Below are positions 2,598-47,102 of a DNA stretch of 64,000 nt, piece by piece. Position 1 is the stretch's first letter; the number at the start of each line of letters is the position of its first letter. Source of the DNA: Thermotogota bacterium. GTDB lineage: Bacteria; Thermotogota; Thermotogae; MWEM01. Location of the stretch: NCBI GenBank assembly GCA_035447925.1, contig DAOTHY010000002.1:40248-104247 (forward strand). Reading direction: 5' to 3'. The translations under genes were made by a program, and so were the position numbers. The notes beneath the pieces were generated by a model. It saw nothing but the letters and a program-made list of their open reading frames with translations. It did no database searches and was not told where the DNA came from.

Positions 2598-3461
2598 TCA
2601 CCTCTTTTTCACGATGATTTCTTTATCCTCTAAGCCACCTACTAAAACTAAATCTTCTTTGTGTTCCAGTACGGTAACCCTTTTCTTTGTCTGATTCTCA
2701 AGAACCACTGTTTCGTCAGAAATATAATCACCTGGAATCCAAGCAGCCATTTGTTCAACATAAGAGACGGTTAATTTGCAGGATAATTCATTCAATGATC
2801 TTGAATTCTTCTGGTCAATATCTAAATCCAAAGCTAACAGATACTGACCGTTTTGCTCAATAAACACCATTTCTTTCAATAATCTTTTTTCATTGGTTGG
2901 CATCATTAATAATTCAACATACTGAGCATTTTTCAAAAAAGTCATTTCATTTGAATAAATTTGAATATAAGCCTTGGAACCCTTGGGTACTATTTCAGCT
3001 AATATTGTTCCTTTTGTAACAAAGAGATGTTGGTTGACTTTGAAGCTAATAATATAGCCATCCACCGGAGATTTAATTTTTGTATTCTCAAGCTTTTTTT
3101 CAGCCAACTCTATTGCTTGTTTTTTTTCTTCTTGAATTGCTTTTCCAGAATTAAGGAGTGAAACAGCATACTCATTCTTCGATTTAGCCAATTGATAGGC
3201 TTCTTCTTTGCTTTCCATCTGGATTATGACTGTATCTATTTCAACGTAATTTCCAATGCCCTGATGAATGTCTTCAATGAAGTCATCGGTTGGGGATTTG
3301 ATCAATATTTTTTCAGGAAATACGATTGTTTTTTCCATTTGTATTTCATTGATAAGCTCAAATGTCCGAACGATCATTTTTTGTGGCTTTTGAATGATTA
3401 GTAAAACAACAAAAATACTTAGCACAAAAATCAAGAAAAAAAGAAGGATCATTCTTTTCAA
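2598..3461 (-). CDS. Membrane-fusion / HlyD-like periplasmic adaptor protein (N-terminal TM helix, coiled coil, lipoyl-type hairpin)
   Basis: N-terminal hydrophobic helix, Lys/Glu-rich coiled coil, then lipoyl-hairpin motif 'IKSPVDGYIISFKVNQ...GTILAEIVP' typical of HlyD/RND adaptors. ATGA overlap with the upstream gene. Confidence 0.5.
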   Translation of the reverse strand: MKRMILLFFLIFVLSIFVVLLIIQKPQKMIVRTFELINEIQMEKTIVFPEKILIKSPTDDFIEDIHQGIGNYVEIDTVIIQMESKEEAYQLAKSKNEYAVSLLNSGKAIQEEKKQAIELAEKKLENTKIKSPVDGYIISFKVNQHLFVTKGTILAEIVPKGSKAYIQIYSNEMTFLKNAQYVELLMMPTNEKRLLKEMVFIEQNGQYLLALDLDIDQKNSRSLNELSCKLTVSYVEQMAAWIPGDYISDETVVLENQTKKRVTVLEHKEDLVLVGGLEDKEIIVKKR

Positions 3462-5740
3462 TGTTTATCCCTCAATCCCAATAAACGATAAAACTCTTTA
3501 ATATGCATAATAGTAGCACCAACGCTTTTAGCAATGGGTTCCAAGTGAAAAAAGCCCTCGTCAAATACAGCAATTTCCGGTTTATAAGCCAGTCCATCTC
3601 TTAACTCAAAACCTATCACATCTGAGAGCATTTTGATCTTCAACCATTTCTCCTGATCTTCAGTTAAAACTGATATAATTTTACCAGTTAACTGATTTGT
3701 TAGTTCATTATTTGATGATGGTGATTCAGCCTTAATTTCATCACCTTCTTCTTCTTCTTCTTCAGCTGGCTGCATTGTTAAGTTATTATTTTCTGCGATG
3801 AAATCAGTATGAATACGCTCTTGATTAGCATCATTACCAGTCATCTCATTCTTTTCCTGATTTGATTCTTCTGTGAACCCTTTCTCATCATCATTAATAC
3901 CAAAATAATGCTTGACATCTTCGTCTTCGTTATCCTCTATACTGAATAAATCTGATAGCTCGTTTGAGTCTGATTTCTTTTCATTCATTTCAAAAGTCTC
4001 GCTTTCAGTTTCACCTGTTAAGTTGGTATTTTGCTCCTTTTCATCTGTTGTTGATGCAGAGAGTTCATCAATAAGGAAACTATCAAGAAGTGATGCCCCT
4101 TTTGCCTGTTCATGCGGGGTTTCTGAACGTTCATTCTGCTCTTCAACGGCTTCAGAATAAGAAATATTTTGGATATCAGGCAAAGATTCTTCAAAATCAT
4201 TGAAAGAACCTAAAATGGCTTCTTCTATCAGTTCTCTTAAAGTCTGGTATTGTCTATCATCAATAGGAAGTTTTCTTTTAATGTGATATTGTTCTTCAGT
4301 ATCAGATAACATGAATAAATGAGACAAGTCAATTTTTTTAAGAAAATCATTAAACAGCTCATCTTTTCTGGAATGTGAAAAATATCCCGAATCGATTTTT
4401 GTGGAATCTAAAATCAACAAAAGAAAATGCTTTTCTTTTTTATTCAAATGATGAACTCGATCGATCAATCGTTCTTGTTCATTTTCCATTTTATTCTCTT
4501 CTTCTTTATCACCATATGATTTTGTACTGATCTTTTCCGCAGATTGATTGTTTTCACTTTCTTTATAAATGATTTCATTTAGGAATGTTAAGGGTTCAGA
4601 AGTTTGAGGTTTCTTTTTTTTCTGATTTTCACTTTTAGACTTTTCTTTTAAAATTTTTTCTTTGATCATTTTGGGAATTTCAAGCGGTTTCTGGCGAGTC
4701 TCCTTCTCTTGAAAAGGGTTTTCTATGTCTACTTTATCTGCAATACTATCTTCTTCAGTTTTTACTTTTTGTTCTGCCGAAACCACATAGAGTTTTTCTG
4801 CCTGATCGTCCGCATGATCGACATTGAGTACTTTAACCAATGTAGAAACCTCATTGGTAGTTAAAAATTCAAAATGATGTCGGATAAAACCTTGAGGGTC
4901 TTCGTTAATAATTTGATTTTTTAAACGGGGGATATCCAACCAGTTTTCTGGATAAAAACTGATAAATTGATCACAAACAAAAGGCTTGAATGGATAGATA
5001 TTTTTAACTAAGTTCATGAAAAAAGAAAATTCAGGTGCATTGAAAAATATCTTATACCCTCTTGAATTTTCAATCTCTGATTTAGATAAGATTAATTTAC
5101 CTTTCTCCAATAGAATATAACTCAGTGCTGTGAGGATTATTTTTGCTGGATTATTATCTTGACCTTCCACTTTTTTCGTTTTCAAGATGGACTTCTTGAC
5201 TTCAATGTTTTGATGTATTTGCGTTGGTTCGTGTGAAATATTTTCTAACATATCATTGGATATAGTGATCAATCGTTCAGGAACAAAGAGTTTATAGAGG
5301 TTAAACATAATCGGTACATTTCTAGACCCTTTATCGAATCTGATCAATGGCTGGAACAATTGTTCAATCTTTTTGACCAGCATATCGCTATTTGGATTTT
5401 GTGTCTTTGTTGTCTGAGTAAAAATTGCGAATGTTCCATTTTCGTCAACGATATAGTTTGCGTTGATAAATGAATCCTTCATGATTTGTTCGAAATCACT
5501 TTTATTGATATAAATATTGATATTGTTTTTATTCATTCCCACATTGATTAAATCAATCTCGTTCTGTTCGATTAGGATGTCAATCCATTGAGTCAAAACA
5601 TCCATCAGATCCTTGTTCCCTACTTTTAATCGCTGTTGAATATACTTTAATGTAAAGAATCCCTTTTTGTTTGATAAGATTTTTTCCAAGAGTTCTTTGA
5701 AATGAATTTCATTTGTGTTCATAGCCATTCTCCTCTTCAA
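3458..5740 (-). CDS. Large (760 aa) hypothetical protein with central highly acidic low-complexity region (EEEEEEGDE, D/E/S/N-rich)
   Basis: Long stop-free ORF in the PilT operon. No recognisable catalytic motif; the acidic linker (~aa 520–690) separates N- and C-terminal globular regions. Start may be Met5/Met7. Confidence 0.5.
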   Translation of the reverse strand: MKRRMAMNTNEIHFKELLEKILSNKKGFFTLKYIQQRLKVGNKDLMDVLTQWIDILIEQNEIDLINVGMNKNNINIYINKSDFEQIMKDSFINANYIVDENGTFAIFTQTTKTQNPNSDMLVKKIEQLFQPLIRFDKGSRNVPIMFNLYKLFVPERLITISNDMLENISHEPTQIHQNIEVKKSILKTKKVEGQDNNPAKIILTALSYILLEKGKLILSKSEIENSRGYKIFFNAPEFSFFMNLVKNIYPFKPFVCDQFISFYPENWLDIPRLKNQIINEDPQGFIRHHFEFLTTNEVSTLVKVLNVDHADDQAEKLYVVSAEQKVKTEEDSIADKVDIENPFQEKETRQKPLEIPKMIKEKILKEKSKSENQKKKKPQTSEPLTFLNEIIYKESENNQSAEKISTKSYGDKEEENKMENEQERLIDRVHHLNKKEKHFLLLILDSTKIDSGYFSHSRKDELFNDFLKKIDLSHLFMLSDTEEQYHIKRKLPIDDRQYQTLRELIEEAILGSFNDFEESLPDIQNISYSEAVEEQNERSETPHEQAKGASLLDSFLIDELSASTTDEKEQNTNLTGETESETFEMNEKKSDSNELSDLFSIEDNEDEDVKHYFGINDDEKGFTEESNQEKNEMTGNDANQERIHTDFIAENNNLTMQPAEEEEEEGDEIKAESPSSNNELTNQLTGKIISVLTEDQEKWLKIKMLSDVIGFELRDGLAYKPEIAVFDEGFFHLEPIAKSVGATIMHIKEFYRLLGLRDKH

Positions 5741-19996: not shown

Positions 19997-21481
19997 ATGT
20001 TAAGTACTCTATTACAAACCATCGTCATTCTTTGTCTTGCCATGCCATTTCTGATTCCAGTTTTTAAGAAACATGCGAAACGAATCCCGTTGATACAAAT
20101 TGTTATTTTCTTAATTTGTCTTCTTTTTCTTTATCAACAGAAAGACAACTTACCGTTAAAATTGGTTTTTGGAGGATGGCAACATACAATCGGGATAGAA
20201 ATCTTATTGGATGTGAATGCACTCCTTTTTTTGGCTGCAACATATATTGTTTTTTTAAGTGTCATTATTTATTCATCGAAAAAGGGACATGATTGGAAAT
20301 ATTATTTTCTAATTAACCTTCTTTTGTCGGATCTCACTTGTCTGTTTCTTGCCAATGATTTGTTCAATATTTATGTAACTCTGGAATTGATGTCATTAAT
20401 ATCATACTTACTGATTTCAATGGAATTTAAAAGCAGGCAAATCTGGTCCAGCTTGAAATACATGATACTGAGCGCTGTCAGTTTTAATCTCTATTTGGTG
20501 GCAACCGCCATGATTTACAATGAATACGGGACTTTGAACATCGATCTGATTGCTACACATGTGATTAAGAACCCCTTTTCCTTATTTCTTTTAACCACTG
20601 CTTTGTTAATCAAATCGGGTATCTTTTTTTACAGTATGTGGCTACCATCAGCACATTCGGATTCTGAAAGCTCAATTTCAGCTATTTTATCTGGAGTTAT
20701 CGTTAATGCGGGGATTTTTCACGTTTTAAGAATTAATAACGCAATAAACTGCGTTGAAATCTCAAGATATATCATAATCATTGGAATTGTCAGTGCAATA
20801 TTCGGTGCTTATTTTTCGATCAAACAGAAGGATATAAAGTTAATTCTGGCTTTCAGTACTTTGTCTCAAATGGGATTCATTCTGGAAGGGTTAAGTTCTT
20901 ATGGACCACAATACGCTTTTTCACATGCCATCTTCAAAGCTTTATTGTTCCTTTGTGCAGGTTATTATCAGCAACTTTTTTCCACCAGAAATATTGAAAC
21001 GTCTAAAAAAGAGATACCCATTTCTCTTTTTTTAGCCATATGGATTGGATTTTTCTCAATATCCGGTCTCCCTTTTTTCTTAGGATCATACTATAAGCAC
21101 GAAATCATGGCATTAACTAGTCCGTTTATTTCATATGGTCTCTTTTTTGCCACCATAGGATCGGTTATTTCAGTAGGAAAATTCGCTTTTGTTGTTAGAC
21201 CTTCAAAGAACGCAATGCATTTTTCTGAAAAAGACTATTCAATTATGCTTCTTTCAATCATCTGTATCATATTTGGTACATTAGGTAGCATAAATCATCT
21301 GGATTTTGAACACTTATTGGAACCTGAGATTCTTTTTGCATTAGGTTTATTTGTTTTATTCACCTTATCAAAAAAAATAAAAATTCATTATCCTTATAAA
21401 CTTTTTAAGCTTAGTAATGTCATAACAATCTATACAGTAATTATTGGAGTGATTGTAGCCTGGACTTCCCTTGCGTTCTAA
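19997..21481 (+). CDS. MrpD/NuoL/NuoN-family antiporter-like subunit (copy 2, tandem paralogue of the previous gene)
   Basis: Co-linear similarity with copy 1 along the whole length (MPFLIPVFKK vs FPFLIPFFKK; WLPSAHSDSESSISAILSGV vs WVPSAQTESEGTVSAILSAV). RBS AGGAG 11 nt upstream. Confidence 0.75.
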   Translation: MLSTLLQTIVILCLAMPFLIPVFKKHAKRIPLIQIVIFLICLLFLYQQKDNLPLKLVFGGWQHTIGIEILLDVNALLFLAATYIVFLSVIIYSSKKGHDWKYYFLINLLLSDLTCLFLANDLFNIYVTLELMSLISYLLISMEFKSRQIWSSLKYMILSAVSFNLYLVATAMIYNEYGTLNIDLIATHVIKNPFSLFLLTTALLIKSGIFFYSMWLPSAHSDSESSISAILSGVIVNAGIFHVLRINNAINCVEISRYIIIIGIVSAIFGAYFSIKQKDIKLILAFSTLSQMGFILEGLSSYGPQYAFSHAIFKALLFLCAGYYQQLFSTRNIETSKKEIPISLFLAIWIGFFSISGLPFFLGSYYKHEIMALTSPFISYGLFFATIGSVISVGKFAFVVRPSKNAMHFSEKDYSIMLLSIICIIFGTLGSINHLDFEHLLEPEILFALGLFVLFTLSKKIKIHYPYKLFKLSNVITIYTVIIGVIVAWTSLAF

Positions 21482-22577
21482 GAAAGGCTTCGAGTATTAA
21501 GGGGTCGTACTTCTCAAACTGTTCTTCAACTATTTCTTTGATAGCCAAATCCGATGTTTGTTTTGTTTTATAAATCCTCTTTGATGTTATGGCATCAAAG
21601 ACATCTGCCACTGAAACAATTTTTGAAAACAAGTCTATTTTGTGACCCTTTAGTCCGTTTGGATAGCCACTACCATCAATTCTTTCATGATGTTGGAAAA
21701 TGATTGTTTTAGTCATTTCAATAATGGCAGACATTTCAGGGGTGAATAAATCATCGTGCAAATAATTTGTATTTGGGAAAGCAGTGCAGATGATTTCCAT
21801 TCCTTTCATACTATGGGTTTTGATAATTTCAAATTCCTCTTTTGTCAATTTTGAAGGTTTACTCAAAATGATATCAGGAATAGCTAATTTACCAATATCA
21901 TGAATAGTGGCAGCCAATTTTAAAGCCTCAAGGGTTAGAGGATTAAACTTGTTTATGATATCGGTTCGGGATAATTCATGTGCTAAATACCAAGTCTGGA
22001 CTGCTATTTCATGAGAATAAATAGCAACCCTTTCCATATGCGGGAAAGTCTCGTCACCTTTTAACTCAAGAATCTTTCTATAGCTTAAAAAAAGGTGTCT
22101 GATTTTTATCAAAGAATGATAAAACTTTATGATTTTTGAACGCAATTGTATTCTCTCTGTTTCTAACAGCTCTAAAAAAGACTTACGAGAAAAAACATCC
22201 GCTTCCAGAAAAATAAAAATATAGAACCGGATTTGATTAATTTTCCCTAAAGGAATGCGGTAGAATTGTGTAATGCGATTTTTTATCATGCATTCTGTAA
22301 AGCTGCTTTTTTGACACTGAGTCACATACCGAAGCGGAAGTTGATCAATAAAAACTATCTCTTTTTCCTGAAAAATGTGATTGATCTGAGAAAGACTGAT
22401 TTGTTCTTGAAAGAACAAAGGCAATTGGGCACATTGTGAGATCTGATAAGAAGAATGATAACCCCTGTGATCAATATGAGAAAGATATATTCCTTTAATT
22501 TCCTTATTCCCCAAAAGTCGACATGCACCAAATGATAGCACATCTTCATATGCTTCAATAATAGCTGGACCCCCCAA
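21441..22577 (-). CDS. HD-GYP domain phosphodiesterase (cyclic-di-GMP type) with uncharacterised N-terminal ~170-aa domain
   Basis: HD motif 'IHDIGKLAIPD', 'HHERIDGSGYP' (GYP motif). 3' end overlaps the convergent mrpD-like gene by ~40 nt. True start may be internal. Confidence 0.75.
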   Translation of the reverse strand: MGGPAIIEAYEDVLSFGACRLLGNKEIKGIYLSHIDHRGYHSSYQISQCAQLPLFFQEQISLSQINHIFQEKEIVFIDQLPLRYVTQCQKSSFTECMIKNRITQFYRIPLGKINQIRFYIFIFLEADVFSRKSFLELLETERIQLRSKIIKFYHSLIKIRHLFLSYRKILELKGDETFPHMERVAIYSHEIAVQTWYLAHELSRTDIINKFNPLTLEALKLAATIHDIGKLAIPDIILSKPSKLTKEEFEIIKTHSMKGMEIICTAFPNTNYLHDDLFTPEMSAIIEMTKTIIFQHHERIDGSGYPNGLKGHKIDLFSKIVSVADVFDAITSKRIYKTKQTSDLAIKEIVEEQFEKYDPLILEAFLRTQGKSRLQSLQ

Positions 22578-22655: not shown

Positions 22656-23888
22656 CTATGCCCAGAATTGTTCCAATTCTTCGGTATCTTTTTTTTCTTT
22701 TGGTACAATTTCTTCCAAGGCGTTTTTTTCGCTTTTTGAATCTTTTATCATATCCAAAAATTCAACAGTCGTCTTTACAACCTGCCTCATTTCAACAAAT
22801 TTATCTCCATGAAAAGGAGAGGTAAGTTTTTCCTGCAACGTATCAAGTGTACTTTTTGAAAGTGAGATATGCGGTTTGATGTGATAAGCCTGTGAATAAA
22901 CTTCGATTATGATTTGTACAAAATCAGTATAGATAGCAGGTGATACTGGCTTAAGAATTTGAACTGTGGATTCAGTGGTTGTACTCATTTCAGTTTTCAG
23001 ACGATCGTAAAGAGCCAGATAGCTGTTAACACCTCTTTCAGAATTCTCAAACCATTGTGGTGTTCCCAGCCAGATACAAAATAAATTAGGCAGCTCTTTT
23101 GAAGAGAGCATATCCATAATCCCTCTTAGGGCTTCATATCCTTTCATGGCAACATTTTTTCTTTGATCCTGCATCAATTCCAATTCATCGAATACAATAA
23201 CAACCCCACTATATTCAATAGCTCTGGATAACTTTAAGATATCCTTTAAGAAAAGAAAACTTTCTTCTTTACTCTCAACTTTCCGAGAGATCTTGACCTT
23301 TTTTAATTCGTGAAAACTAATCTTCCTTCCCGACATCCAGTCCACAATCTTCTTTTTTTCATCATCTCGCTTTAGAATATGCGCCTTCACAAACTCCGAT
23401 AATCCCATATTAAAATCATTTGTAAATTCATACTCAAGAACTTTTTCTTTAATTCTATTGATAAATATCTCGTCCTGACCTCTCTCGATGCCCTGCATCT
23501 CCAGCTCAGATATCAGCTTTTCGGACCATTGTGAAAGTAGATAAAACAGCGAATCCCCAGAAAATTCAGGTGTGATGATACCATTGATAATCTGCTGATA
23601 AAATTCGACAGGCTTATTCAAAGGAGGCTCTGAAACATAGATGGGCAGAAGGTTTTTTTCTAATCCACTTTCTAAAGCAATTCTTCCTAACAAAGTTTTA
23701 CCGGTTCCATAATCTCCTAAAAACACCTTTAAAGCGCTTCCACCAGCAGCAACAAATTCAATATCTTTTTTAAGAATTTGTGTTTCTCTCTCTCTGCCCT
23801 TAATGATTCTGGATGCTGCTCCAAAAGGTAAGTCTGACCCATTTCTGAGTGATCTGACAATCTCTTCTTCAAATGTTGGCATTACCAA
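22656..23888 (-). CDS. Uncharacterised P-loop NTPase (~410 aa; Walker A GDYGTGKT, Walker B VVIVFDELE), AAA/ORC-like spacing
   Basis: Walker A 'FLGDYGTGKTLLGRIAL' at ~aa 57–73, Walker B 'GVVIVFDELELMQ' ~160 aa later, ~170-aa C-terminal helical region. No second catalytic domain recognised. Start overlaps the downstream partner's stop by 7 nt. Confidence 0.6.
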   Translation of the reverse strand: MVMPTFEEEIVRSLRNGSDLPFGAASRIIKGRERETQILKKDIEFVAAGGSALKVFLGDYGTGKTLLGRIALESGLEKNLLPIYVSEPPLNKPVEFYQQIINGIITPEFSGDSLFYLLSQWSEKLISELEMQGIERGQDEIFINRIKEKVLEYEFTNDFNMGLSEFVKAHILKRDDEKKKIVDWMSGRKISFHELKKVKISRKVESKEESFLFLKDILKLSRAIEYSGVVIVFDELELMQDQRKNVAMKGYEALRGIMDMLSSKELPNLFCIWLGTPQWFENSERGVNSYLALYDRLKTEMSTTTESTVQILKPVSPAIYTDFVQIIIEVYSQAYHIKPHISLSKSTLDTLQEKLTSPFHGDKFVEMRQVVKTTVEFLDMIKDSKSEKNALEEIVPKEKKDTEELEQFWA

Positions 23889-24613
23889 TCACCTCTGACT
23901 TCTTCCTGAATCGCTTTGATTTTCTCCTCTGTCAACCCATCTCCCCATTTCACGAGCATTTTATCACCGGCATTTTTTATCATCAATACAGGCAATCCGT
24001 CAATAATAAACTTTCTACTCAGTTTTGGAATCTGGAATTGTGGCATATTCACTTCTTCCTGCAGTTGTGAAATGGTTTGCCATGAGTATGGTTCTTGCGC
24101 CAATAATTGTTTTAGCAACCATATTTCGTTATTACTCATCTTTTCAAGTTTTTCTTTTATTTTGTCATGAAAATTCTGATGAATAGCGTTCTCTTCGACA
24201 ACTGGAGGTTCTGAAAGATCTTTCTGCTCTTGGTCGTCGCTCTGTAAAGGTAAAGATTGATCCGATGTGTGATTCGGACTTTTCTGCTTTTTAATATCCG
24301 CTTTTAAATACATCGTTTTGATCAGATCGGTATCGCCTTTAAGGGCTAACAAAAGCTTTTTAAGAAGATTGAGATTTTTGGTTGACACAGACTCATGATT
24401 TACTTTATTGTCGCTGATCATTTTTTGGAGAAATACTAATCTCTTTTCCACTGAATCGATTTTTGTGTTGAGCTTTATGATGGCTTTATCGAAATCTTCT
24501 TTGCTTTTCTGATTTAGTTTTCTTTGTTTTTCTTCCACGTTGGATATTTTATAGTTCGTCCTCAAAGAAAAAAACAGTGTTACCATAACAATCCCCACGA
24601 TTAGATAGTCCAT
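23882..24613 (-). CDS. Membrane-anchored coiled-coil protein with C-terminal winged-helix-like domain (partner of the P-loop NTPase)
   Basis: N-terminal TM helix (YLIVGIVMVTLFFSL), Lys/Glu coiled coil, Ser/Gln/Asp/Pro linker, C-terminal ~100 aa with wHTH pattern (NNEIWLLKQLLAQEPYSWQTISQLQEEV...FIIDGLPVLMIKNAGDKMLVKW). Confidence 0.5.
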   Translation of the reverse strand: MDYLIVGIVMVTLFFSLRTNYKISNVEEKQRKLNQKSKEDFDKAIIKLNTKIDSVEKRLVFLQKMISDNKVNHESVSTKNLNLLKKLLLALKGDTDLIKTMYLKADIKKQKSPNHTSDQSLPLQSDDQEQKDLSEPPVVEENAIHQNFHDKIKEKLEKMSNNEIWLLKQLLAQEPYSWQTISQLQEEVNMPQFQIPKLSRKFIIDGLPVLMIKNAGDKMLVKWGDGLTEEKIKAIQEEVRGDW

Positions 24614-24718
24614 TTATACCCCTCATTTCCAATTTATGCCAGCAGATTATAACATGGATTTTTAAGAATACATCGAATTAAAATGTATCAGTACGATTCA
24701 AATAAAAAAAAGAAACAG

Positions 24719-24747
24719 TTGCAAAAAAAAAATCATTGGTGTATACT
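24719..24747 (+). promoter_or_regulatory. Putative sigma70 promoter for folP (TTGCAA -17- TATACT)
   Basis: -35 TTGCAA (24719–24724), 17-nt spacer, -10 TATACT (24742–24747) with upstream TG. Followed by tandem GTGGGG(GG)TATAT repeats and G-rich SD before ATG 24797. Confidence 0.45.
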
Positions 24748-24796
24748 ATCTGTGGGGTATATTTTTTTCTTATTATATGTGGGGGGTATATTACAT

Positions 24797-25906
24797 ATGG
24801 AGATGTGTATACTCGACTCTAGTGGAATTACAGAGCCGGGGTCTTTTGTTTTCGGAGATTCTTTTCTAACCTTAAAAATAACTGGTCATAAAGCAGAATT
24901 AAACAAAATACGCTTGGTAATTCGTGATTTGTTGGAAGTACGTTTTATGGGTAATCGGTTGATTGTTTTTGGTTCGGTTATTGATTTCAGGCAACTGCTT
25001 AGAACTGCTCAGAATAAACTTGAAGCAAACTTCTTTAACGACCTCAAGGCACTTATTAATTTGAATAACACCTATATTCACTTCCCGCATGCGGGCAAGC
25101 TATCATTGTCAAGACCGTTAATTATGGGGGTAATTAACGTTACGGATGATAGTTTCTACCCTCAAAGCCGGGTTTCGGATGAACAACTCTTTGAAATACG
25201 TGTCAGAAAAATGCTTGAGGACGGTGTTGATTTGATTGACATCGGAGGTGAATCATCTCGTCCCGGATCGGCTCCTGTTGATGAACAACTGGAAATAGAA
25301 CGCATAATCCCTTTCATCAAAAGACTTAGAAGAATAACTGATATCCCAATTTCTGTGGATACTTACAGGTATCAAACTGCAAAGCAAGCAATTAATGCCG
25401 GAGCAGACATGATTAATGATATCAGTGCGTTGCGATTTGACAAAGAACTGGCTTCTTTTGTTGCTTTGAATCAAATCCCAATCGTTCTCATGCATATGAA
25501 AGGAACACCAGCCACGATGCAGCAACAAGTCAAATACGTCAATGTCGTATCTGAAGTACATGCCTTTTTTAAAGAAAGAATCGCCTTTGCACAAGAAAAA
25601 GGAATTAGTCAAAAAAATGTGATTCTTGATCCCGGGATTGGTTTTGGGAAAAGAGTAGTTGACAATTTAAGAATTTTGAAAGATTTGGATTCTTTTCATT
25701 CTTTTCGACTTCCCTTGTTGTTGGGGACTTCAAGGAAGTCATTTATTGGGGAGGTGTTAAACCAAAAAGACCCGAACGAACGTCTATCTGGAACGATGGC
25801 AACAACAGCACTGGGGGTGCTGAAGGGGGCTCATATATTCAGAGTTCATGACGTTAAGGAAAATAGGGAAGTTGCAGATTTGGTTTTTAACATCCAAGAA
25901 AGTTAA
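24797..25906 (+). CDS. folP: Dihydropteroate synthase with ~90-aa N-terminal extension of unknown function
   Basis: Pterin-binding signatures 'GVINVTDDSFY', 'DIGGESSRPG', 'DPGIGFGK'. Start reassigned to ATG 24797 because the ORF-track start at 24683 lies upstream of the predicted promoter. Confidence 0.85.
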   Translation: MEMCILDSSGITEPGSFVFGDSFLTLKITGHKAELNKIRLVIRDLLEVRFMGNRLIVFGSVIDFRQLLRTAQNKLEANFFNDLKALINLNNTYIHFPHAGKLSLSRPLIMGVINVTDDSFYPQSRVSDEQLFEIRVRKMLEDGVDLIDIGGESSRPGSAPVDEQLEIERIIPFIKRLRRITDIPISVDTYRYQTAKQAINAGADMINDISALRFDKELASFVALNQIPIVLMHMKGTPATMQQQVKYVNVVSEVHAFFKERIAFAQEKGISQKNVILDPGIGFGKRVVDNLRILKDLDSFHSFRLPLLLGTSRKSFIGEVLNQKDPNERLSGTMATTALGVLKGAHIFRVHDVKENREVADLVFNIQES

Positions 25907-25942
25907 TACGGAAAACACCGTAGAACTAAGGGGGGTTCTATT

Positions 25943-27451
25943 ATGTTATTAAAAGACGTTATCGGTGTACTAAAAGAGAAAAAGCTTCTTGTGAACTTGT
26001 TCAATGTAGAAGATAATCTTGATATGTACATTGAGAATATTTCCATTCACACAAACAGTATTAAAAGCAATTCGCTATTTGTTTGTCGAAAAGGATACAA
26101 ATATGATTCTCATGCGTTGATTACCGAAGCACTTAAAGATGGGGCTGTGGGATTTATTGTGGAGCGACCGGTAGATTATGATTCAAAAGAGCCCATGATA
26201 CAAGTTACTGACAGCCGATATGCAGAATCAGTGATTGCTTCTTTCTTACATGATAATCCTCATGAAAAATTAAAGACCTTTGCCGTCACCGGTACAAACG
26301 GTAAAACAACGGTATCCACAATGATCCATTACCTGCTTAGCCGGATCGGCTTAAAAGGAACTTTGATGGGAACGGTCGAAAACATTGTTGTGGATAGGAG
26401 TTATGATTCATACAACACCACTGCCACCGCTTTAGAAATTGTCGATAATACTAAAGAAACCATCGATAAAGGTGGAACGTTTTTGAGTATGGAAGTCTCC
26501 TCTCATGCGTTATCGATGAAAAGAGTGGAAAGCATGCAGTTCGATTATGCCATTATGACGAATATTACACACGATCATCTTGATTATCATAATAATATGC
26601 AAGAATATATTGATACAAAATTCCATCTGATTGAATTACTAAAAAGCACAGGAACAGCAATTTTAAATGTTGATGATACAAATGTCAGGAAAATGATAGG
26701 TGATATTCCTATTGATAAAAAGATCAGCACTTACGGAATGAAACGAGAAGATTGCACACCTGATTATTCTGCAAGCAATATTAATGCGGATGTTAATGGC
26801 ATTGAGTTTGACTTTTATATCAAAAACAAGAAGATCAAAAGAATCAAAGTACCCATTATTGGGGATTTTAATGTTTATAACGTTCTACCTGTATTAGCCA
26901 TGTTGGATATGGAAGGATACAATATCAATTATATTGCCAAATACCTACAATCTTTCAGGGGTGTTCCGGGAAGATTTGAATTGTATTCTCATATCGGTAA
27001 TGATATCGATCTGGTAGTTGACTTTGCCCATACACCCGATGCATTGGAGAAGGTTCTGAAAAACGCCAAATCGCTTAAGAGAAGCAGGGTGATTGCTGTG
27101 TTTGGTGCAGGCGGTGATTCCGACAAAAAGAAAAGACCTCTGATGGGAAAAATTGCTTCTGAATTGGCGGACGTGGTCATCATTACCAGTGATAATCCCA
27201 AATCAGAAAATCCATTGGAAATTATCAAAGAAATAGAAGCCGGCATGGGAAACGACACACCTTATTTGCTTGTAGAAGACAGAAAATTGGCCATTGAAAC
27301 AGCTTTAAACCTTTCAAATAAAGGGGATTTGGTGGTTTTGGCAGGCAAAGGACACGAGAAATATCAATATTATGAACACACCTTTTTTCCCTTAAACGAC
27401 AGAGCTATCGCCTTTCAAATGATCAGGACACTTAAGCATCATGCATCTTAA
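25943..27451 (+). CDS. murE: UDP-N-acetylmuramoyl-L-alanyl-D-glutamate--2,6-diaminopimelate ligase
   Basis: Mur ligase P-loop 'VTGTNGKTTV', DNPR-like 'ITSDNPKSE' motif of MurE, ~500 aa. Confidence 0.9.
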   Translation: MLLKDVIGVLKEKKLLVNLFNVEDNLDMYIENISIHTNSIKSNSLFVCRKGYKYDSHALITEALKDGAVGFIVERPVDYDSKEPMIQVTDSRYAESVIASFLHDNPHEKLKTFAVTGTNGKTTVSTMIHYLLSRIGLKGTLMGTVENIVVDRSYDSYNTTATALEIVDNTKETIDKGGTFLSMEVSSHALSMKRVESMQFDYAIMTNITHDHLDYHNNMQEYIDTKFHLIELLKSTGTAILNVDDTNVRKMIGDIPIDKKISTYGMKREDCTPDYSASNINADVNGIEFDFYIKNKKIKRIKVPIIGDFNVYNVLPVLAMLDMEGYNINYIAKYLQSFRGVPGRFELYSHIGNDIDLVVDFAHTPDALEKVLKNAKSLKRSRVIAVFGAGGDSDKKKRPLMGKIASELADVVIITSDNPKSENPLEIIKEIEAGMGNDTPYLLVEDRKLAIETALNLSNKGDLVVLAGKGHEKYQYYEHTFFPLNDRAIAFQMIRTLKHHAS

Positions 27452-41625: not shown

Positions 41626-41695
41626 TGATTTGGATAATCAAAAATCCGGAGAATGTCTCTCCGGATTTTCTTTGTTCAAAAAGAAAGCGAGAATA

Positions 41696-44230
41696 ATGAT
41701 AAAAACAAATCGGTTCAAAAAAAATTTATTACTAATCATCATTCTAATTACCGTGATATTACCCATCATTTGCATCGCACAAGCAAATGACTTAGTCCCA
41801 GGACCCGGAGAAGTTGAAGTACAAATATCAGCCGGATCAGTTGTGTTTTCGGGTAAAAATGACATGGTTGTTTTTTCAGATGGTGTAGAAGTCAAATATG
41901 AAGATATCATCATTCGAGCACCAAAAATTACTGCCTATCTTAAAAATGAAGACACGGTCGAGTATTTCTTTGCCGAATCATCCGACACAACTCCCGTATA
42001 CCTTATTAAAGCTAAAGAACAATTTACATCCAAAAGTCTAAAAGCTTATGTTGAAAAAAAGGCTTATTTTCTCTATGAGCTTAGAGGAACGTATCAGGCT
42101 AAAAATGCAAAGGGTTCTAACCAAGCAATTATTTTAGCTGCAGATAAAAGCAGGAGTAAATCCTTTGATGAGGTCAATGTCACAGAAGCGCATCAAGGGT
42201 ATCTGACCACATGTAATGAGGAAAAACCTCATTATCGCTTTCAAGCTAATTATATCGTCGTTAAAGAAAGTAATGAAATCATCGCTTATGATTTACTGAT
42301 GTATATATATGATATTCCTATTTTGCCTTATCCAGTTTATTTTTCATCTCTTGAAAGAAAAGCTCAACCGGTTGAATCTTCTTTCACGTATACCGGTGCA
42401 GCAGGTGTACAAACCCATTTAAGATTTAATTATTATTCCAAGGGAGACGAAATCGGAGCTGTTTTTTACGATACAGTCGGGGATGGAGATGCAAAGGGAA
42501 ATACCATTGGTGCAGAGAACAAATTCACCTTGCCTGATGGAAAAACAAGTGTTTATTTTTACGGCTTGCAAAAAGCTAAAGAGGATTTTTCAAACCGTTC
42601 AAACGAATTAAAATTTCAAATAGCACATAAATGGGATGACCAGCTTGAAACACTTCTTTACTTCAATAACAAAATGAGCATCAGTAATGATGAAACCGTC
42701 AGCAGAAATACCAATTATGGCATCAGTGTGAAAGGCAAAGTAAATAACGCTCCATTTACGTTTAGCATGAGTGAAAGTGAAGTAAGATCTCGAACAAAGA
42801 ACACGAATGTCATCACTTTACCATCCTTTGCTGTTTCCAAAATGGGATTCAAGTTCTTTCCGGAAGTTTTTCCAGTTGCTGTTAATTTTAAAGATCTCAA
42901 ATTCAATGCTGTCAACACGTCCGATGCATCTGTCTCACTGATGGATAAATTATCTGAACTCAGTTATAATGGTCAATACGGTCTTTCATCTGTATTGCCT
43001 GAAATTATCATCCGAGATGTGAAATTGGTAAATGGATTGACAACTGATATGGATTATTCCTTTAAATATCAGAACAAATATACAGATGATTTTAAAATAG
43101 ATAACACGTTTACATTACCCAAGATAGGTTTTGACTGGGGTAGTTATTTTGGACTTCACACCCAATACACGATGCGAGCTGGTTTATTGCAGGATTACCA
43201 AGACGAAAAAGCCTACCGGTATTCAGAAAATGTACTCACTGATCTGAACTTCAACCTATTCTTCTGGAAAAACACCATTGTTCATGATTATGTTTTCTTG
43301 AAATCTGATGGAAATACCTCTCGTTTTAACTACAACAAAGAAAAAAACCTATTAAGTTTAACTTCCAGTCTTGATCTTTCACTTTTGTCATCCAAAGTCA
43401 TTTTCAAAACATCCTATGATTTCCTGAAAGATGAACAAAAACTGTCTAATCCACAACTGATAACCAACACAGATTTTTCCCTAATCTCTACAAGGTTCAA
43501 ATTAGACACGGTAAGCATAATTGATGCCAGTGATACAAAGTTTTTATCTACCGATTATGGTTTTGGAATTAGCAACAATTTATTCCATAACAAACTTGAT
43601 TTTGTGTATTTATACGATCAGGATGTCAACATCAGAAAGTTGACGGACTCTTTTGGCTTTTCATTCGGACCCATCAACATCTTCAAAAAGATTACAACAG
43701 ATTTTGAACTCTTATTTACATATCATGAAGAAGATGACGGACTAGGATTGGATAAATTAACCAATAAAAACACAGTGTCTTTAGGCAAAATAGGATTCAT
43801 TGACAGTCTTGCTAACACGCTGGATATACAAATCCTTCCACGAGAAAAAGAAAACGATCAAAAAGTCAATTATGTTAGGAATTCTACCAGCATCAAGTTT
43901 GATCAAACAACACTTGGATTAGACGCAAAATACTCCAGGACAAAAAAACTTGATTTGGCTTTTTCCGGGGCTTTTGAGAAATTAAAAGTAAATTTTGGAA
44001 CCCGTTACGATTTGGAAGCTAAGCAGATTGAAAGTCTCAGTCTTTCATTGGTAAAAGATCTGCACTGTTGGCAAAATCAAACCACAGTCGAATTTGCTTT
44101 AAAAGATCAAGACGGCACAAAAAAACTTACTTTACAAAAATTTACTACCAGTTTTTCAATCAAGCAATTCCCGGAGAAATTTGTGAAAGTGGAGCCATTA
44201 AAGAAAGAATTCGATCTTGCAATCTTTTAA
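41696..44230 (+). CDS. lptD: LPS-assembly outer membrane protein LptD (OstA) homologue
   Basis: Signal peptide (MIKTNRFKKNLLLIIILITVILPIICIAQA), N-terminal OstA/LptA-like jellyroll, 'YLTTCNEEKPHYRFQANYIVV' (LptD TTC...P.W motif region), long beta-barrel with C-terminal Phe (…DLAIF). Confidence 0.75.
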   Translation: MIKTNRFKKNLLLIIILITVILPIICIAQANDLVPGPGEVEVQISAGSVVFSGKNDMVVFSDGVEVKYEDIIIRAPKITAYLKNEDTVEYFFAESSDTTPVYLIKAKEQFTSKSLKAYVEKKAYFLYELRGTYQAKNAKGSNQAIILAADKSRSKSFDEVNVTEAHQGYLTTCNEEKPHYRFQANYIVVKESNEIIAYDLLMYIYDIPILPYPVYFSSLERKAQPVESSFTYTGAAGVQTHLRFNYYSKGDEIGAVFYDTVGDGDAKGNTIGAENKFTLPDGKTSVYFYGLQKAKEDFSNRSNELKFQIAHKWDDQLETLLYFNNKMSISNDETVSRNTNYGISVKGKVNNAPFTFSMSESEVRSRTKNTNVITLPSFAVSKMGFKFFPEVFPVAVNFKDLKFNAVNTSDASVSLMDKLSELSYNGQYGLSSVLPEIIIRDVKLVNGLTTDMDYSFKYQNKYTDDFKIDNTFTLPKIGFDWGSYFGLHTQYTMRAGLLQDYQDEKAYRYSENVLTDLNFNLFFWKNTIVHDYVFLKSDGNTSRFNYNKEKNLLSLTSSLDLSLLSSKVIFKTSYDFLKDEQKLSNPQLITNTDFSLISTRFKLDTVSIIDASDTKFLSTDYGFGISNNLFHNKLDFVYLYDQDVNIRKLTDSFGFSFGPINIFKKITTDFELLFTYHEEDDGLGLDKLTNKNTVSLGKIGFIDSLANTLDIQILPREKENDQKVNYVRNSTSIKFDQTTLGLDAKYSRTKKLDLAFSGAFEKLKVNFGTRYDLEAKQIESLSLSLVKDLHCWQNQTTVEFALKDQDGTKKLTLQKFTTSFSIKQFPEKFVKVEPLKKEFDLAIF

Positions 44231-46695: not shown

Positions 46696-47102
46696 TGATA
46701 TTCCAATACCTTTCTTATAATGGAAAAATAGTCTTCTAAATGATTACTTAGAAAGAATAAATTTGAATCCACCCTTTTACAATCAGTAGCACCAAAACCA
46801 TAAATGGTTTGGTAAAACGTTGATAAAAACATGGATATTTCTTCTTCCGCCCTCATTTCGCTAGGCAAAGCTAATGTGGAAATCACTTTACCTTTTTCAA
46901 GAAGTTGATCAATATGCCAATGTTTTTTGTAACCCCCCTCTTGAAAGGAAATATGCCTGTTGATCCGCTGTCTTAGATTCTTCATTGCAGATCCAACATA
47001 AGTATATAATCCGTTTTGTATATGGCATCTGTTGCCGGATATCGTAATTTCAATATCCTCTGGTATTTCAATAAAGAGTAAATAACTACCCTTATTCATC
47101 AT
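46671..47102 (-). CDS. GIY-YIG nuclease-like small protein (DUF123 family)
   Basis: 'GLYTYVGSAMKNLRQRINRH' = GIY-YIG core (Y..Y.G.....R...H). Overlaps the glyS 3' end (11 nt) and ftsW 5' end (25 nt). Confidence 0.6.
   Translation of the reverse strand: MMNKGSYLLFIEIPEDIEITISGNRCHIQNGLYTYVGSAMKNLRQRINRHISFQEGGYKKHWHIDQLLEKGKVISTLALPSEMRAEEEISMFLSTFYQTIYGFGATDCKRVDSNLFFLSNHLEDYFSIIRKVLEYHCNKKIEA

What the first reader, a model, noticed from the sequence alone, without database searches (positions are those of the whole stretch)
22656..24613. Two-gene module: orphan P-loop NTPase coupled to a membrane-anchored coiled-coil winged-helix protein
A 410-aa NTPase with Walker A GDYGTGKT and Walker B VVIVFDELE ~160 residues later overlaps, by 7 nt, a 243-aa protein. 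That protein has one N-terminal TM helix, a coiled coil, a low-complexity linker and a C-terminal winged-helix-like domain. Neither matches a family I can name with confidence (BREX BrxD/DUF2791-like ATPases are a loose possibility for the NTPase). The pair sits between an HD-GYP signalling gene and folP and is unrelated to its neighbours. The membrane anchor plus putative DNA/protein-binding wH plus ATPase architecture resembles small defence or signalling cassettes, but I do not recognise it as any described system.
Basis: partly seen in the sequence, partly recalled or inferred. Interest (0 to 1): 0.7.

Follow-up and report, generated by a model that had tools for sequence, protein, structure and literature searches.

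The report
Membrane-anchored partner with helicase-less BrxD-family ATPase
A conserved two-gene operon in uncultured Thermotogota pairs an ORC/Cdc6-type ATPase, from the family otherwise known only in the BREX and Shango anti-phage systems, with a new membrane-anchored coiled-coil protein and no helicase, and it evolves like a core cellular gene rather than a mobile defence cassette.

Summary
Both genes are real, on the minus strand, and translationally coupled. The likely ATPase start is the ATG at 23882, giving 408 aa and a TAATG 1-nt overlap rather than 7 nt.

The 243-aa partner belongs to a tiny family with no Pfam, PDB, PADLOC or PHROG match: 12 representatives among 1.84 billion, all named ones Thermotogota. 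The N-terminal anchor, long helix and hypervariable linker are supported. The winged-helix call is plausible but unproven.

The partner directly precedes the ATPase in all 29 loci examined (16 species-level MAGs). This holds across six housekeeping contexts with no adjacent helicase, nuclease or defence gene. All six non-Thermotogota DUF2791 loci inspected have a DEAD helicase immediately downstream.

The ATPase is as constrained as murE (dN/dS about 0.03).

Best reading: a vertically inherited, membrane-tethered AAA+ switch of unknown client. A minimal Shango-like defence system is the main rival. This is a new variant of a known kind, of moderate interest.

The parts
24646..24654 (-). Extended -10 promoter element TGTTATAAT upstream of the partner gene. 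It lies in the intergenic region shared with the divergently transcribed folP.
   Evidence: Read directly from the sequence. The same element, TG(T/C)TAT(A/T)AT followed by CTGCTGG, recurs upstream of the partner in relatives, including ones in other genomic contexts (L004, L018, L030). The consensus scanner did not list it because there is no good -35.
24619..24624 (-). Shine-Dalgarno GAGGGG, 5 nt upstream of the partner ATG.
   Evidence: A purine-rich SD is present upstream of the partner start in nearly all lineages. This supports the 243-aa start over the 234-aa (M10) start in the public annotation.
23882..24613 (-). Partner ('anchor') gene, 243 aa. It belongs to a small Thermotogota-restricted family with no Pfam, NCBIfam, PADLOC, PHROG or PDB match.
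   Evidence: It lies immediately upstream of the ATPase in 29 of 29 loci. dN/dS is 0.15.
24563..24607 (-). N-terminal hydrophobic membrane anchor (residues 3-17, YLIVGIVMVTLFFSL). It is followed by the invariant juxtamembrane motif N20-x-K22-x-S24...E28.
   Evidence: Mean Kyte-Doolittle hydropathy is 2.1-3.7 in all full-length members. An acidic residue sits at position 2. Net positive charge follows in most close members (+1 to +4 in the window's subclade, about 0 to -2 in several distant members), so an N-out/C-in topology is inferred mainly from the close subclade.
24299..24562 (-). Long alpha-helix, a putative coiled-coil stalk (residues 18-105).
   Evidence: AF2 predicts a continuous helix over residues 2-106 with pLDDT about 90. 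The best heptad register has 61% hydrophobic residues at a/d positions, against 43% or less for the other registers. Numerous sub-threshold coiled-coil Pfam hits.
24173..24298 (-). Hypervariable polar/acidic linker (residues 106-147).
   Evidence: 81% polar or charged residues. Length varies from 33 to 70 aa across the family. pLDDT is below 50. Nucleotide identity to L010 falls to 57% here, against a background of about 88%.
23885..24172 (-). Conserved C-terminal alpha/beta domain (residues 148-243). It is the proposed ATPase-binding module and may be winged-helix-like.
   Evidence: It is the most conserved part of the partner, with invariant W178, P196, R200, G206, P208, K213, W223 and G224, and has the lowest dN of the three regions. 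The fold is not confidently predicted. No PDB or Pfam match. pI is 5-7 in most members.
22656..23882 (-). DUF2791 (PF10923) ORC/Cdc6-type AAA+ ATPase, 408 aa from the ATG at 23882. The alternative TTG start at 23888 gives 410 aa.
23694..23717 (-). Walker A motif GDYGTGKT.
   Evidence: G, Y, G, G and K are invariant across all 24 aligned DUF2791 proteins. Position.
23178..23204 (-). Walker B motif VVIVFDELE.
   Evidence: The D-E pair is invariant across the 24-sequence alignment. Position.
22785..22787 (-). Invariant arginine (R368 in 410-aa numbering, motif EMRQV) in the C-terminal lid. It is a candidate sensor-2 residue.
   Evidence: Invariant in all 24 DUF2791 sequences. The sensor-2 role is inferred from its position in the AAA+ lid of the model.
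22662..22667 (-). Invariant C-terminal F-W dipeptide at the end of a disordered acidic tail. It is a candidate docking peptide.
   Evidence: F408 and W409 are invariant in the clade. The tail has pLDDT below 50. Other DUF2791 groups also end in short hydrophobic peptides such as EFTL, EFTI and VVEF.

Best explanation
This is a two-gene operon with its own promoter. It encodes a membrane-tethered AAA+ switch complex that is specific to one uncultured Thermotogota lineage and is inherited vertically.

The proposed mechanism has four steps.

1. The 243-aa partner inserts into the cytoplasmic membrane through its N-terminal hydrophobic helix, N-out and C-in. This is inferred.
2. It projects a coiled-coil stalk of about 85 residues and a flexible linker into the cytoplasm. 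The helix is predicted by AF2. Oligomerisation is inferred.
3. It presents a conserved 96-aa C-terminal domain that holds the co-translated ATPase. This is inferred from translational coupling, strict co-occurrence and the conservation pattern.
4. The ATPase is an ORC/Cdc6-type AAA+ of the DUF2791 family with intact Walker A and B motifs and conserved arginines. This is shown. It is therefore expected to act as an ATP-dependent oligomerising switch that engages a polymeric client, most likely DNA, as ORC, Cdc6, DnaA, TnsC and MuB do. That last point rests on fold relatives and family knowledge.

Every other DUF2791 ATPase inspected has a dedicated SF2 helicase directly downstream, and this one does not. 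Its output must therefore be something other than loading a cognate helicase encoded beside it.

Its housekeeping-level sequence constraint, its stable retention through genome rearrangements and its housekeeping neighbourhoods suggest a resident cellular role at the membrane. That role might be tethering or surveillance of DNA at the inner face of the membrane. It is unlikely to be a mobile anti-phage cassette. The client and the biological role are not shown.
For: Family and fold of the ATPase:
-.

Intact catalytic motifs:
-.

A distinct, long-branched subfamily:
- It is 18-23% identical to SngB, BrxD and other DUF2791 groups.

Partner architecture:
-.

Strict linkage of the two genes:
- The partner is directly upstream of the ATPase in 29 of 29 loci, covering 16 species-level genomes.
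- The junction is TAATG or ATGA in almost all of them, and the upstream -10/SD element is conserved.

Vertical inheritance:
- ATPase identity tracks murE identity. The pairs are 88/86, 89/88, 87/88, 73/66 and 62/58%.
- folP-murE synteny is retained down to 62% ATPase identity.

Sequence constraint:
- ATPase dN is 0.07-0.09, equal to murE. dN/dS is 0.028 for the ATPase and 0.149 for the partner.

No effector or helicase nearby:
- None is adjacent in six different contexts: folP/mur, dnaE, secA-prfB, A2M/MagC, cobO and a GH2 insertion.
- None was found in the rest of the 64-kb window: the genes within about 10 kb of the pair and the ten largest remaining ORFs are housekeeping or have no family hit.
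- All six non-Thermotogota DUF2791 loci have a DEAD helicase immediately downstream. The literature describes BrxD-BrxHI as an obligate dyad (PMC12839542).

Not mobile:
- No phage or PHROG match, and plasmid hits are all at or below 25% identity.
Against: - No direct evidence exists that the two proteins interact, or that the partner is membrane-inserted. The hydrophobic segment is short, at 15-17 residues.
- The partner's C-terminal domain could not be folded confidently, so its role is inferred from conservation only.
- Every characterised context of PF10923 is anti-phage (BREX-2/6 and Shango). The prior for a defence role is therefore substantial.
- I could not test presence/absence across all genomes of the lineage. 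The murE-anchored scan gave only one informative locus. 'Core gene' status therefore rests on synteny and substitution rates, not on a census.
- No client (DNA or otherwise) is identified. The partner's C-terminal domain is near-neutral, so it gives no hint of DNA binding.
Confidence: 0.45

Rival explanations
1. The pair is a minimal, Shango-like anti-phage system. The permanently membrane-anchored partner replaces the amphitropic TerB protein SngA as a 'membrane surveillance' sensor. The DUF2791 ATPase transduces the signal. The helicase or effector is either encoded elsewhere in the genome or is dispensable, for example if the ATPase itself sequesters incoming DNA at the membrane.
For: - PF10923 ATPases are otherwise known only from BREX-2/6 and Shango.
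- The PADLOC BrxD and SngB models hit the ATPase at 2.7e-41 and 1.6e-27.
- In Shango and in L009 the gene upstream of the ATPase also overlaps it. In Shango that upstream protein carries a TerB domain, which the literature describes as membrane-associated. The 'membrane-associated partner, then DUF2791' layout is therefore parallel.
- The partner evolves much faster than the ATPase, and its linker is hypervariable.
Against: - No helicase, nuclease or other effector is adjacent in any of six contexts, or among the ORFs examined elsewhere in the window.
- The pair is not in defence islands, not on plasmids or phages, and not in viral protein families.
- Inheritance is vertical, with murE-like constraint and no sign of positive selection. 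Partner dN/dS is 0.15, and even the linker is 0.16.
- The partner shows no homology to SngA or TerB. hhalign probability is below 2%, and the weak Pfam TerB_C hit lies in the coiled coil.
- The module is restricted to one lineage, whereas defence systems are typically spread by horizontal transfer.
Confidence: 0.27
2. The pair is a cell-envelope or cell-division accessory. The partner would be a ZipA- or EzrA-like membrane anchor (TM segment, charged helix, flexible linker, globular C-terminal domain) that recruits the ATPase to the peptidoglycan synthesis or division machinery encoded next door (folP-murE-murF-mraY).
For: - The architecture resembles bitopic division anchors. That resemblance is from my own knowledge of ZipA and EzrA. 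The only tool support is a sub-threshold EzrA coiled-coil hit (E=0.2).
- The pair is adjacent to murE-murF-mraY in most lineages, and to ftsW/secA in L030.
- Conservation is at the level of a core gene.
Against: - The mur genes are transcribed divergently, and the adjacency is lost in several lineages (L005/L024, L028, L030).
- There is no homology to any division protein.
- ORC/Cdc6-type AAA+ proteins are not known to act in peptidoglycan synthesis or division. This is general knowledge.
Confidence: 0.1
3. The pair is a c-di-GMP signalling module that works together with the downstream HD-GYP phosphodiesterase. This follows the first reader's suggestion of a signalling cassette.
For: - The HD-GYP gene (21441-22577) follows the ATPase on the same strand after 78 nt, with no predicted terminator between them.
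- The adjacency is kept in the window, L001-3, L011-17 and L031.
Against: - HD-GYP is absent next to the pair in every lineage below about 78% ATPase identity that has readable downstream flank (L004/L020, L005/L024, L019, L021-23, L025, L028-30). The link is therefore local synteny and not obligatory.
- HD-GYP evolves about three times faster than the ATPase (dN 0.28 against 0.09).
Confidence: 0.04
4. The pair is a decaying remnant of a former Shango or BREX locus, with no current function.
For: The helicase and other system components are missing.
Against: - Both ORFs are intact in all 29 loci.
- Purifying selection is strong (dN/dS 0.03 and 0.15).
- Catalytic motifs are invariant.
- The promoter, SD and coupled junction are conserved.
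Confidence: 0.02

Closest known systems
Shango anti-phage system (SngA TerB protein, SngB DUF2791 ATPase, SngC DEAD/DEAH helicase)
   Same: - The ATPase family is the same (PF10923; PADLOC SngB E=1.6e-27).
- The layout is the same: a gene for a membrane-associated protein lies directly upstream of the ATPase and overlaps it.
- TerB is described as membrane-associated or amphitropic. Both systems therefore plausibly place the ATPase at the membrane.
   Different: - There is no SngC helicase and no TerB_N or TerB_C domain.
- The partner is not homologous to SngA (hhalign probability below 2%).
- ATPase identity is only 19-22%.
- The pair is chromosomal, restricted to one lineage and vertically inherited, not in defence hotspots or on plasmids.
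BrxD of type 2 and type 6 BREX (the BrxD-BrxHI dyad)
   Same: - This is the best-scoring named profile (PADLOC BrxD 2.7e-41; NCBIfam BREX_BrxD 135 bits).
- It has the same domain plan as described for BrxD: a standalone ORC/Cdc6 AAA+ with a helical insert and a C-terminal helical bundle, and no extra DNA-binding domain (PMC12839542).
   Different: - The score is far below the equivalog cut-off (135 against 350 bits).
- Identity to a bona fide BrxD is 23%.
- No PglZ, PglX, BrxC, PglW or BrxHI lies nearby, and none was found among the large ORFs examined in the rest of the window.
- A novel membrane-anchored partner sits upstream, where BREX has PglZ.
ORC/Cdc6, DnaA, TnsC and MuB initiator/loader AAA+ ATPases
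   Different: - Sequence identity is only 12-15%.
- About 140 residues of helical elements lie between strands 2 and 3 of the AAA+ core (residues 87-227 in the model). Walker A and Walker B are therefore about 170 residues apart.
- There is no C-terminal winged-helix domain in cis.
- It is paired with a membrane anchor.
Bitopic membrane anchors with a flexible linker and a globular cytoplasmic head, such as ZipA, EzrA and ArlX/FlaX
   Same: The architecture is analogous: an N-terminal anchor, a charged or coiled helix, a variable linker and a conserved C-terminal domain that presents a cytoplasmic partner. ArlX likewise scaffolds an ATPase. This comparison rests on my own knowledge. The only tool results are sub-threshold coiled-coil hits to ArlX (E=0.009) and EzrA (E=0.2).
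   Different: There is no sequence homology. The hits are coiled-coil noise. The resemblance is one of design only.

Membership tests
PF10923 / DUF2791 (BrxC_BrxD) P-loop ATPase family | Full-length match to the family HMM above the gathering score. | tested here: met
   182.8 bits against a cut-off of 22.2, E=1.3e-53, residues 7-385 on profile positions 6-402 of 414. All clade homologues carry precomputed PF10923.
PF10923 / DUF2791 (BrxC_BrxD) P-loop ATPase family | ORC/Cdc6-type AAA+ fold with intact Walker A, Walker B and conserved arginines. | tested here: met
BrxD (BREX type 2/6 component) | Score at or above the NCBIfam BREX_BrxD equivalog cut-off. | tested here: not met
   135.4 bits against a cut-off of 350.
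BrxD (BREX type 2/6 component) | Tightly linked downstream BrxHI or DEAD/DEAH helicase. | tested here: not met
   No helicase lies within 10 kb of the pair or among the ten largest remaining ORFs of the window. None is adjacent in any of six clade contexts. A genuine BrxD locus shows PglZ-BrxD-helicase.
BrxD (BREX type 2/6 component) | BREX core genes (BrxC/PglY, PglX methyltransferase, PglZ) in the same locus. | tested here: not met
   The gene tables around the pair and the Pfam scan of the large window ORFs show only housekeeping genes.
Shango (SngABC) | Upstream SngA with TerB_N, TerB or TerB_C domains. | tested here: not met
   The partner has no TerB hit in Pfam, NCBIfam or PADLOC. The weak TerB_C hit (E=0.13) in 2 of 19 members falls in the coiled coil in the one member whose coordinates I examined, P0053. 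hhalign against two SngA proteins gives probability below 2%.
Shango (SngABC) | Downstream SngC DEAD/DEAH helicase. | tested here: not met
   Absent. Present in all Shango loci inspected.
Shango (SngABC) | Confers phage resistance. | not testable with these tools
   This requires expression and phage challenge. The host lineage is uncultured.
Winged helix-turn-helix domain (partner C-terminus) | Recognisable wHTH fold or profile match. | tested here: inconclusive
   The secondary-structure order of helix, helix, [helix], beta-hairpin is compatible with a wHTH. However, pLDDT is 34-61, HTH_6 reaches only E=0.022, below threshold, and the domain-only profile has no PDB hit at E of 10 or less. 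The near-neutral pI argues against classical DNA binding.
Bitopic membrane protein (partner N-terminus) | Transmembrane helix with the cytoplasmic side marked by flanking positive charge. | tested here: inconclusive
   A hydrophobic stretch of 15-17 residues (Kyte-Doolittle 2.1-3.7) is conserved in character. D/E sits at position 2. Net charge over residues 18-40 is +1 to +4 in the window's subclade, but ranges from -2 to +1 in the distant members. The segment is short. No dedicated TM or signal-peptide predictor was available, and there is no experimental localisation.

The most novel reading that the evidence does not exclude
An ORC/Cdc6-type AAA+ from the otherwise defence-dedicated DUF2791 (BrxD/SngB) family has been domesticated in an uncultured Thermotogota lineage. 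It has become a core, membrane-tethered cellular machine with a lineage-specific anchor protein. This machine acts on the cell's own DNA or another housekeeping client at the membrane, for example by coupling chromosome handling to the envelope. That would make it a previously unrecognised bacterial ORC-like cellular system, and a clear case of exaptation from defence to housekeeping.
Probability: 0.2. Interest if true: 0.7.

Novelty: new variant of a known kind. Interest (0 to 1): 0.4.

Why it matters
DUF2791 ATPases (BrxD, SngB) are among the least understood parts of BREX-2 and Shango. They are assumed to exist in order to load or activate their cognate SF2 helicase. This finding is a natural variant that does three things:
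- It has dispensed with the adjacent helicase.
- It has acquired an unrelated, permanently membrane-anchored partner.
- It is held under murE-level constraint in one lineage.

This variant offers two things.
- It is a stripped-down two-protein system for asking what the ATPase itself does, what its conserved C-terminal tail contacts, and whether membrane placement is the common theme that links it to TerB-containing Shango.
- It is a candidate example of a defence-family module recruited to a resident cellular role.

It also defines a new small protein family, the anchor, that no database currently describes. The limits are that the hosts are uncultured, that no client or phenotype is known, and that the ATPase family itself is already catalogued.

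Tried and rejected
1. The partner's C-terminus as a divergent TerB_C domain. This was prompted by the SngA-SngB gene order and a weak Pfam TerB_C signal in 2 of 19 members. I rejected it for two reasons. In the member whose coordinates I examined (P0053), the hit lies in the coiled coil and linker among many other coiled-coil noise hits. hhalign against SngA of L007 and L008 and against the L009 upstream ORF gives probability below 2%.

2. Diversifying selection on the partner. This was suggested because L010 shows folP at 100%, the ATPase at 96% and the partner at 75% identity. I rejected it. The anomaly is a 1.3-kb stretch of 100% identity covering folP, against a background of about 88%. 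Partner dN/dS is 0.15, with no region above 0.16.

3. A presence/absence ('empty site') test using murE as an independent anchor in metagenomes. Only 3 of 80 loci were close relatives, and only one of those had enough flank. That one has the pair. The test is inconclusive.

4. The structure of the partner's C-terminal domain. AF2 with 12 sequences gave pLDDT 34-61.

5. Sequence searches of PDB with the ATPase, the whole partner profile and the C-terminal-domain profile. These gave nothing meaningful.

7. A viral-contig scan with the partner alignment failed because no stretch was conserved enough. Phage tblastn and PHROGs gave no hits.

8. A riboswitch or sRNA around the operon. Rfam found none.

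9. Literature. 'DUF2791' appears in one unrelated paper. I found no paper describing a helicase-less DUF2791 pair or the partner family.
Full report
**Observation**

The two ORFs exist as described on the minus strand. One is a 243-aa ORF at 24613..23882, and it lies upstream of a 410-aa ORF at 23888..22656. The junction reads GAT TGG TAA TGC CAA. Close homologues begin at MPTF/MPSF (408 aa), and the public annotation of this very contig (GCA_964453735.1, CAYVRG010000007.1) calls a 408-aa product. The likely ATPase start is therefore the ATG at 23882, which gives a TAATG stop/start overlap of 1 nt. The 7-nt overlap applies only if the upstream TTG is used.

The public annotation truncates the partner to 234 aa, starting at M10. 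Three observations support the 243-aa form:
- The N-terminus M-D/E-x-L is nearly invariant across the family.
- A GAGGGG Shine-Dalgarno sits 5 nt upstream of the ATG at 24613.
- A perfect extended -10 element (TGTTATAAT, 24654-24646) lies upstream.

**The ATPase**

The ATPase is not an orphan. It matches Pfam PF10923 (BrxC_BrxD, formerly DUF2791) over its full length, at 182.8 bits and E=1.3e-53. It also hits the PADLOC BrxD model (2.7e-41) and SngB model (1.6e-27). It scores only 135 bits against the NCBIfam BrxD equivalog model, whose cut-off is 350.

- Then TnsC, DnaA and MuB.

Foldseek gave only generic AAA+ matches, and no PDB chain matches by sequence.

Several residues are invariant even against SngB/BrxD-type relatives: the Walker A residues (G58, Y60, G61, G63, K64), the Walker B pair (D234, E235) and a lid arginine (R368).

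The tail is a disordered acidic stretch that ends in an invariant F-W. Other DUF2791 groups also end in short hydrophobic peptides. I read this as a possible docking peptide, by inference.

**The partner**

The partner has no hit in Pfam, NCBIfam, PADLOC, PHROGs or PDB. An exhaustive profile search of 1.84 billion cluster representatives found only 12 representatives. Every homologue that carries a source name is from Thermotogota.

Across members down to about 22% identity the architecture is constant:
- A hydrophobic segment of 15-17 residues, with an acidic residue at position 2. Positive charge follows in most close members, so I infer an N-out/C-in topology.
- An invariant juxtamembrane motif, N20-K22-S24-E28.
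- A long helix. AF2 predicts a single helix over residues 2-106 with pLDDT about 90.
- A polar linker of 33-70 aa that varies in both length and sequence.
- A conserved 96-aa C-terminal domain, with invariant W178, P196, R200, G206, P208, K213, W223 and G224.

It is not established, for four reasons:
- pLDDT there is 34-61.
- The only HTH hit is below threshold.
- The domain-only profile finds nothing in PDB.
- The domain is near-neutral (pI 5-7) in most members. This suggests protein binding rather than DNA binding.

**Conservation of the pair**

The ATPase clade (58-96% identity) occurs in 16 species-level genomes, all uncultured Thermotogota MAGs. It also occurs in many metagenome contigs.

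In all 29 loci examined the partner gene lies directly upstream. Nearly all have a TAATG or ATGA junction. A conserved SD and -10 element travels with the pair into different genomic contexts.

The next-nearest ATPases are only 18-24% identical. In a distance tree the Thermotogota clade is a separate long branch, roughly equidistant from the SngB, BrxD and other groups.

**Context**

Six distinct neighbourhoods were seen:
- folP-murE-murF on one side, with HD-GYP and Mrp on the other. This is the arrangement in the window and its close relatives.
- The same arrangement with a GH2 gene inserted.
- folP on one side, with an unannotated 387-aa gene and cobO on the other.
- dnaE, AhpC and glnS.
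- MagC and an alpha-2-macroglobulin gene.
- fucI on one side, with secA, prfB and ftsW on the other.

None of these contains a helicase, nuclease, methyltransferase or known defence gene beside the pair. The other large ORFs examined in the 64-kb window are housekeeping: argS, fusA, secA, lspA-glyS, bamA and so on.

In contrast, all six non-Thermotogota DUF2791 loci I inspected have a DEAD/DEAH helicase immediately downstream:
- Four are Shango-type, with a TerB protein, the ATPase and a helicase.
- One is BREX-6, with PglZ, BrxD and a helicase.
- One has a small ORF, two DUF2791 genes and a Cas3-like helicase.

This agrees with the literature, which describes BrxD and BrxHI as a tightly linked dyad and proposes that BrxD loads the helicase (PMC12839542). 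HD-GYP adjacency is confined to the subclade with at least 78% ATPase identity, so it is local synteny.

**Evolution**

ATPase identity tracks murE identity across lineages. The ATPase/murE pairs are 88/86, 89/88, 87/88, 73/66 and 62/58%. ATPase dN equals murE dN, at 0.07-0.09. In the one comparison where dS is not saturated, dN/dS is 0.028 for the ATPase and 0.149 for the partner, and even the linker is at 0.16.

There are no phage matches, and no plasmid match exceeds 25% identity. GC content of the pair is close to that of its flanks. Together this indicates a vertically inherited gene pair under housekeeping-level constraint, which is unlike the usual behaviour of defence cassettes. I could not carry out a full presence/absence census. 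The murE-anchored metagenome scan gave only one informative locus, and it has the pair.

**Interpretation**

The best-supported model is a membrane-tethered AAA+ switch.

The partner anchors in the membrane and projects a coiled-coil stalk and a flexible linker into the cytoplasm. Its conserved C-terminal domain holds the co-translated ORC/Cdc6-type ATPase. ATP-dependent oligomerisation of the ATPase then engages a polymeric client, probably DNA.

What is shown:
- The family and fold of the ATPase.
- The intact catalytic motifs.
- The strict linkage and coupling of the two genes.
- The absence of an adjacent helicase.
- Vertical inheritance.
- Strong purifying selection.

What is inferred:
- Membrane insertion and topology of the partner.
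- Physical interaction between the partner and the ATPase.
- The identity of the client.
- The biological role.

I favour a resident cellular function (confidence about 0.45) over a minimal Shango-like defence system (about 0.27). The defence rival is kept alive by the exclusively defensive record of PF10923, and by the parallel with the membrane-associated TerB partner of SngB. A division or envelope role (about 0.1), an HD-GYP signalling module (about 0.04) and a decaying remnant (about 0.02) are less likely.

**Comparison and novelty**

The ATPase is a member of the known PF10923 family. NCBI already labels some homologues 'DUF2791 family P-loop domain-containing protein'. It fails the membership tests for BrxD on three counts: the equivalog score, the helicase and the BREX core genes. 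It also fails the tests for Shango SngB, because there is no TerB partner and no SngC.

The partner is a new family that no database describes. A two-gene, helicase-less, membrane-anchored arrangement has not been described in the literature I could search. I class it as a new variant of a known kind, of moderate interest (0.4). It is useful as a minimal natural system for working out what DUF2791 ATPases do, and as a possible case of exaptation from defence to housekeeping. Its value is limited by the uncultured hosts and the lack of any functional handle.

Noticed in passing
window 24650-25990 (folP, + strand) compared with L010: The window and L010 (CAYYNI010000154.1, a different Thermotogaceae MAG) are 85-92% identical at the nucleotide level across murE, the partner and the ATPase. 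Across about 1.3 kb covering the whole of folP they are 100% identical, and the boundaries are sharp. This suggests recent recombination or horizontal transfer of a folP allele, or else a chimeric MAG assembly. As listed, the folP ORF also carries an N-terminal extension of about 130 aa (407 aa; relatives are called at 369-392 aa).
   Followed up: partly
L009:7150-12086: A locus in GCA_053938705.1 has four overlapping genes: a 284-aa ORF with no Pfam hit, two tandem DUF2791 paralogues (412 and 426 aa), and a DEAD/Cas3-like_C_2 helicase. It looks like an undescribed relative of Shango or BREX-2 that lacks TerB. Its upstream ORF is not homologous to the Thermotogota partner (hhalign probability 0.2%).
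   Followed up: partly
window 47092-50163 (- strand); also L030:12990-16043: A 1023-aa ORF combines an N-terminal signal peptidase II domain (Peptidase_A8, LspA) with a full glycyl-tRNA synthetase beta subunit in one frame. The same fusion is called as a single 1017-aa gene in a distant relative. This is an unusual gene fusion, or possibly two abutting in-frame genes.
   Followed up: no
window 3458-5740 (- strand) and 41630-44230 (+ strand): Two large ORFs (760 aa and 866 aa) have no Pfam match at E of 1e-5 or better.
   Followed up: no
window 22662-22667 (ATPase C-terminus) and relatives: The clade's ATPases all end in a disordered acidic tail followed by an invariant F-W and then 1-2 small residues. 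SngB- and BrxD-type relatives also end in short hydrophobic peptides (EFTL, EFTI, GFTV, VVEF). A C-terminal docking peptide may be a family-wide feature of DUF2791 that has not been described.
   Followed up: partly
window 24641-24654 and upstream of the partner gene in L001, L004, L010-L014, L018 and L030: The promoter-proximal element CATGTTATAATCTGCTGG (extended -10 plus the next 7 nt) is conserved upstream of the pair. This holds even in lineages where the pair sits in a different genomic context. The segment after the -10 may be a regulatory site.
   Followed up: no
window 21441-22577 (- strand): The downstream HD-GYP protein (PF01966 and PF13487 in the C-terminal half) has an unannotated N-terminal domain of about 170 aa. 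It evolves about three times faster than the ATPase (dN 0.28 against 0.09). Its 3' end overlaps the convergent Mrp antiporter gene (19997-21481) by 41 nt.
   Followed up: no
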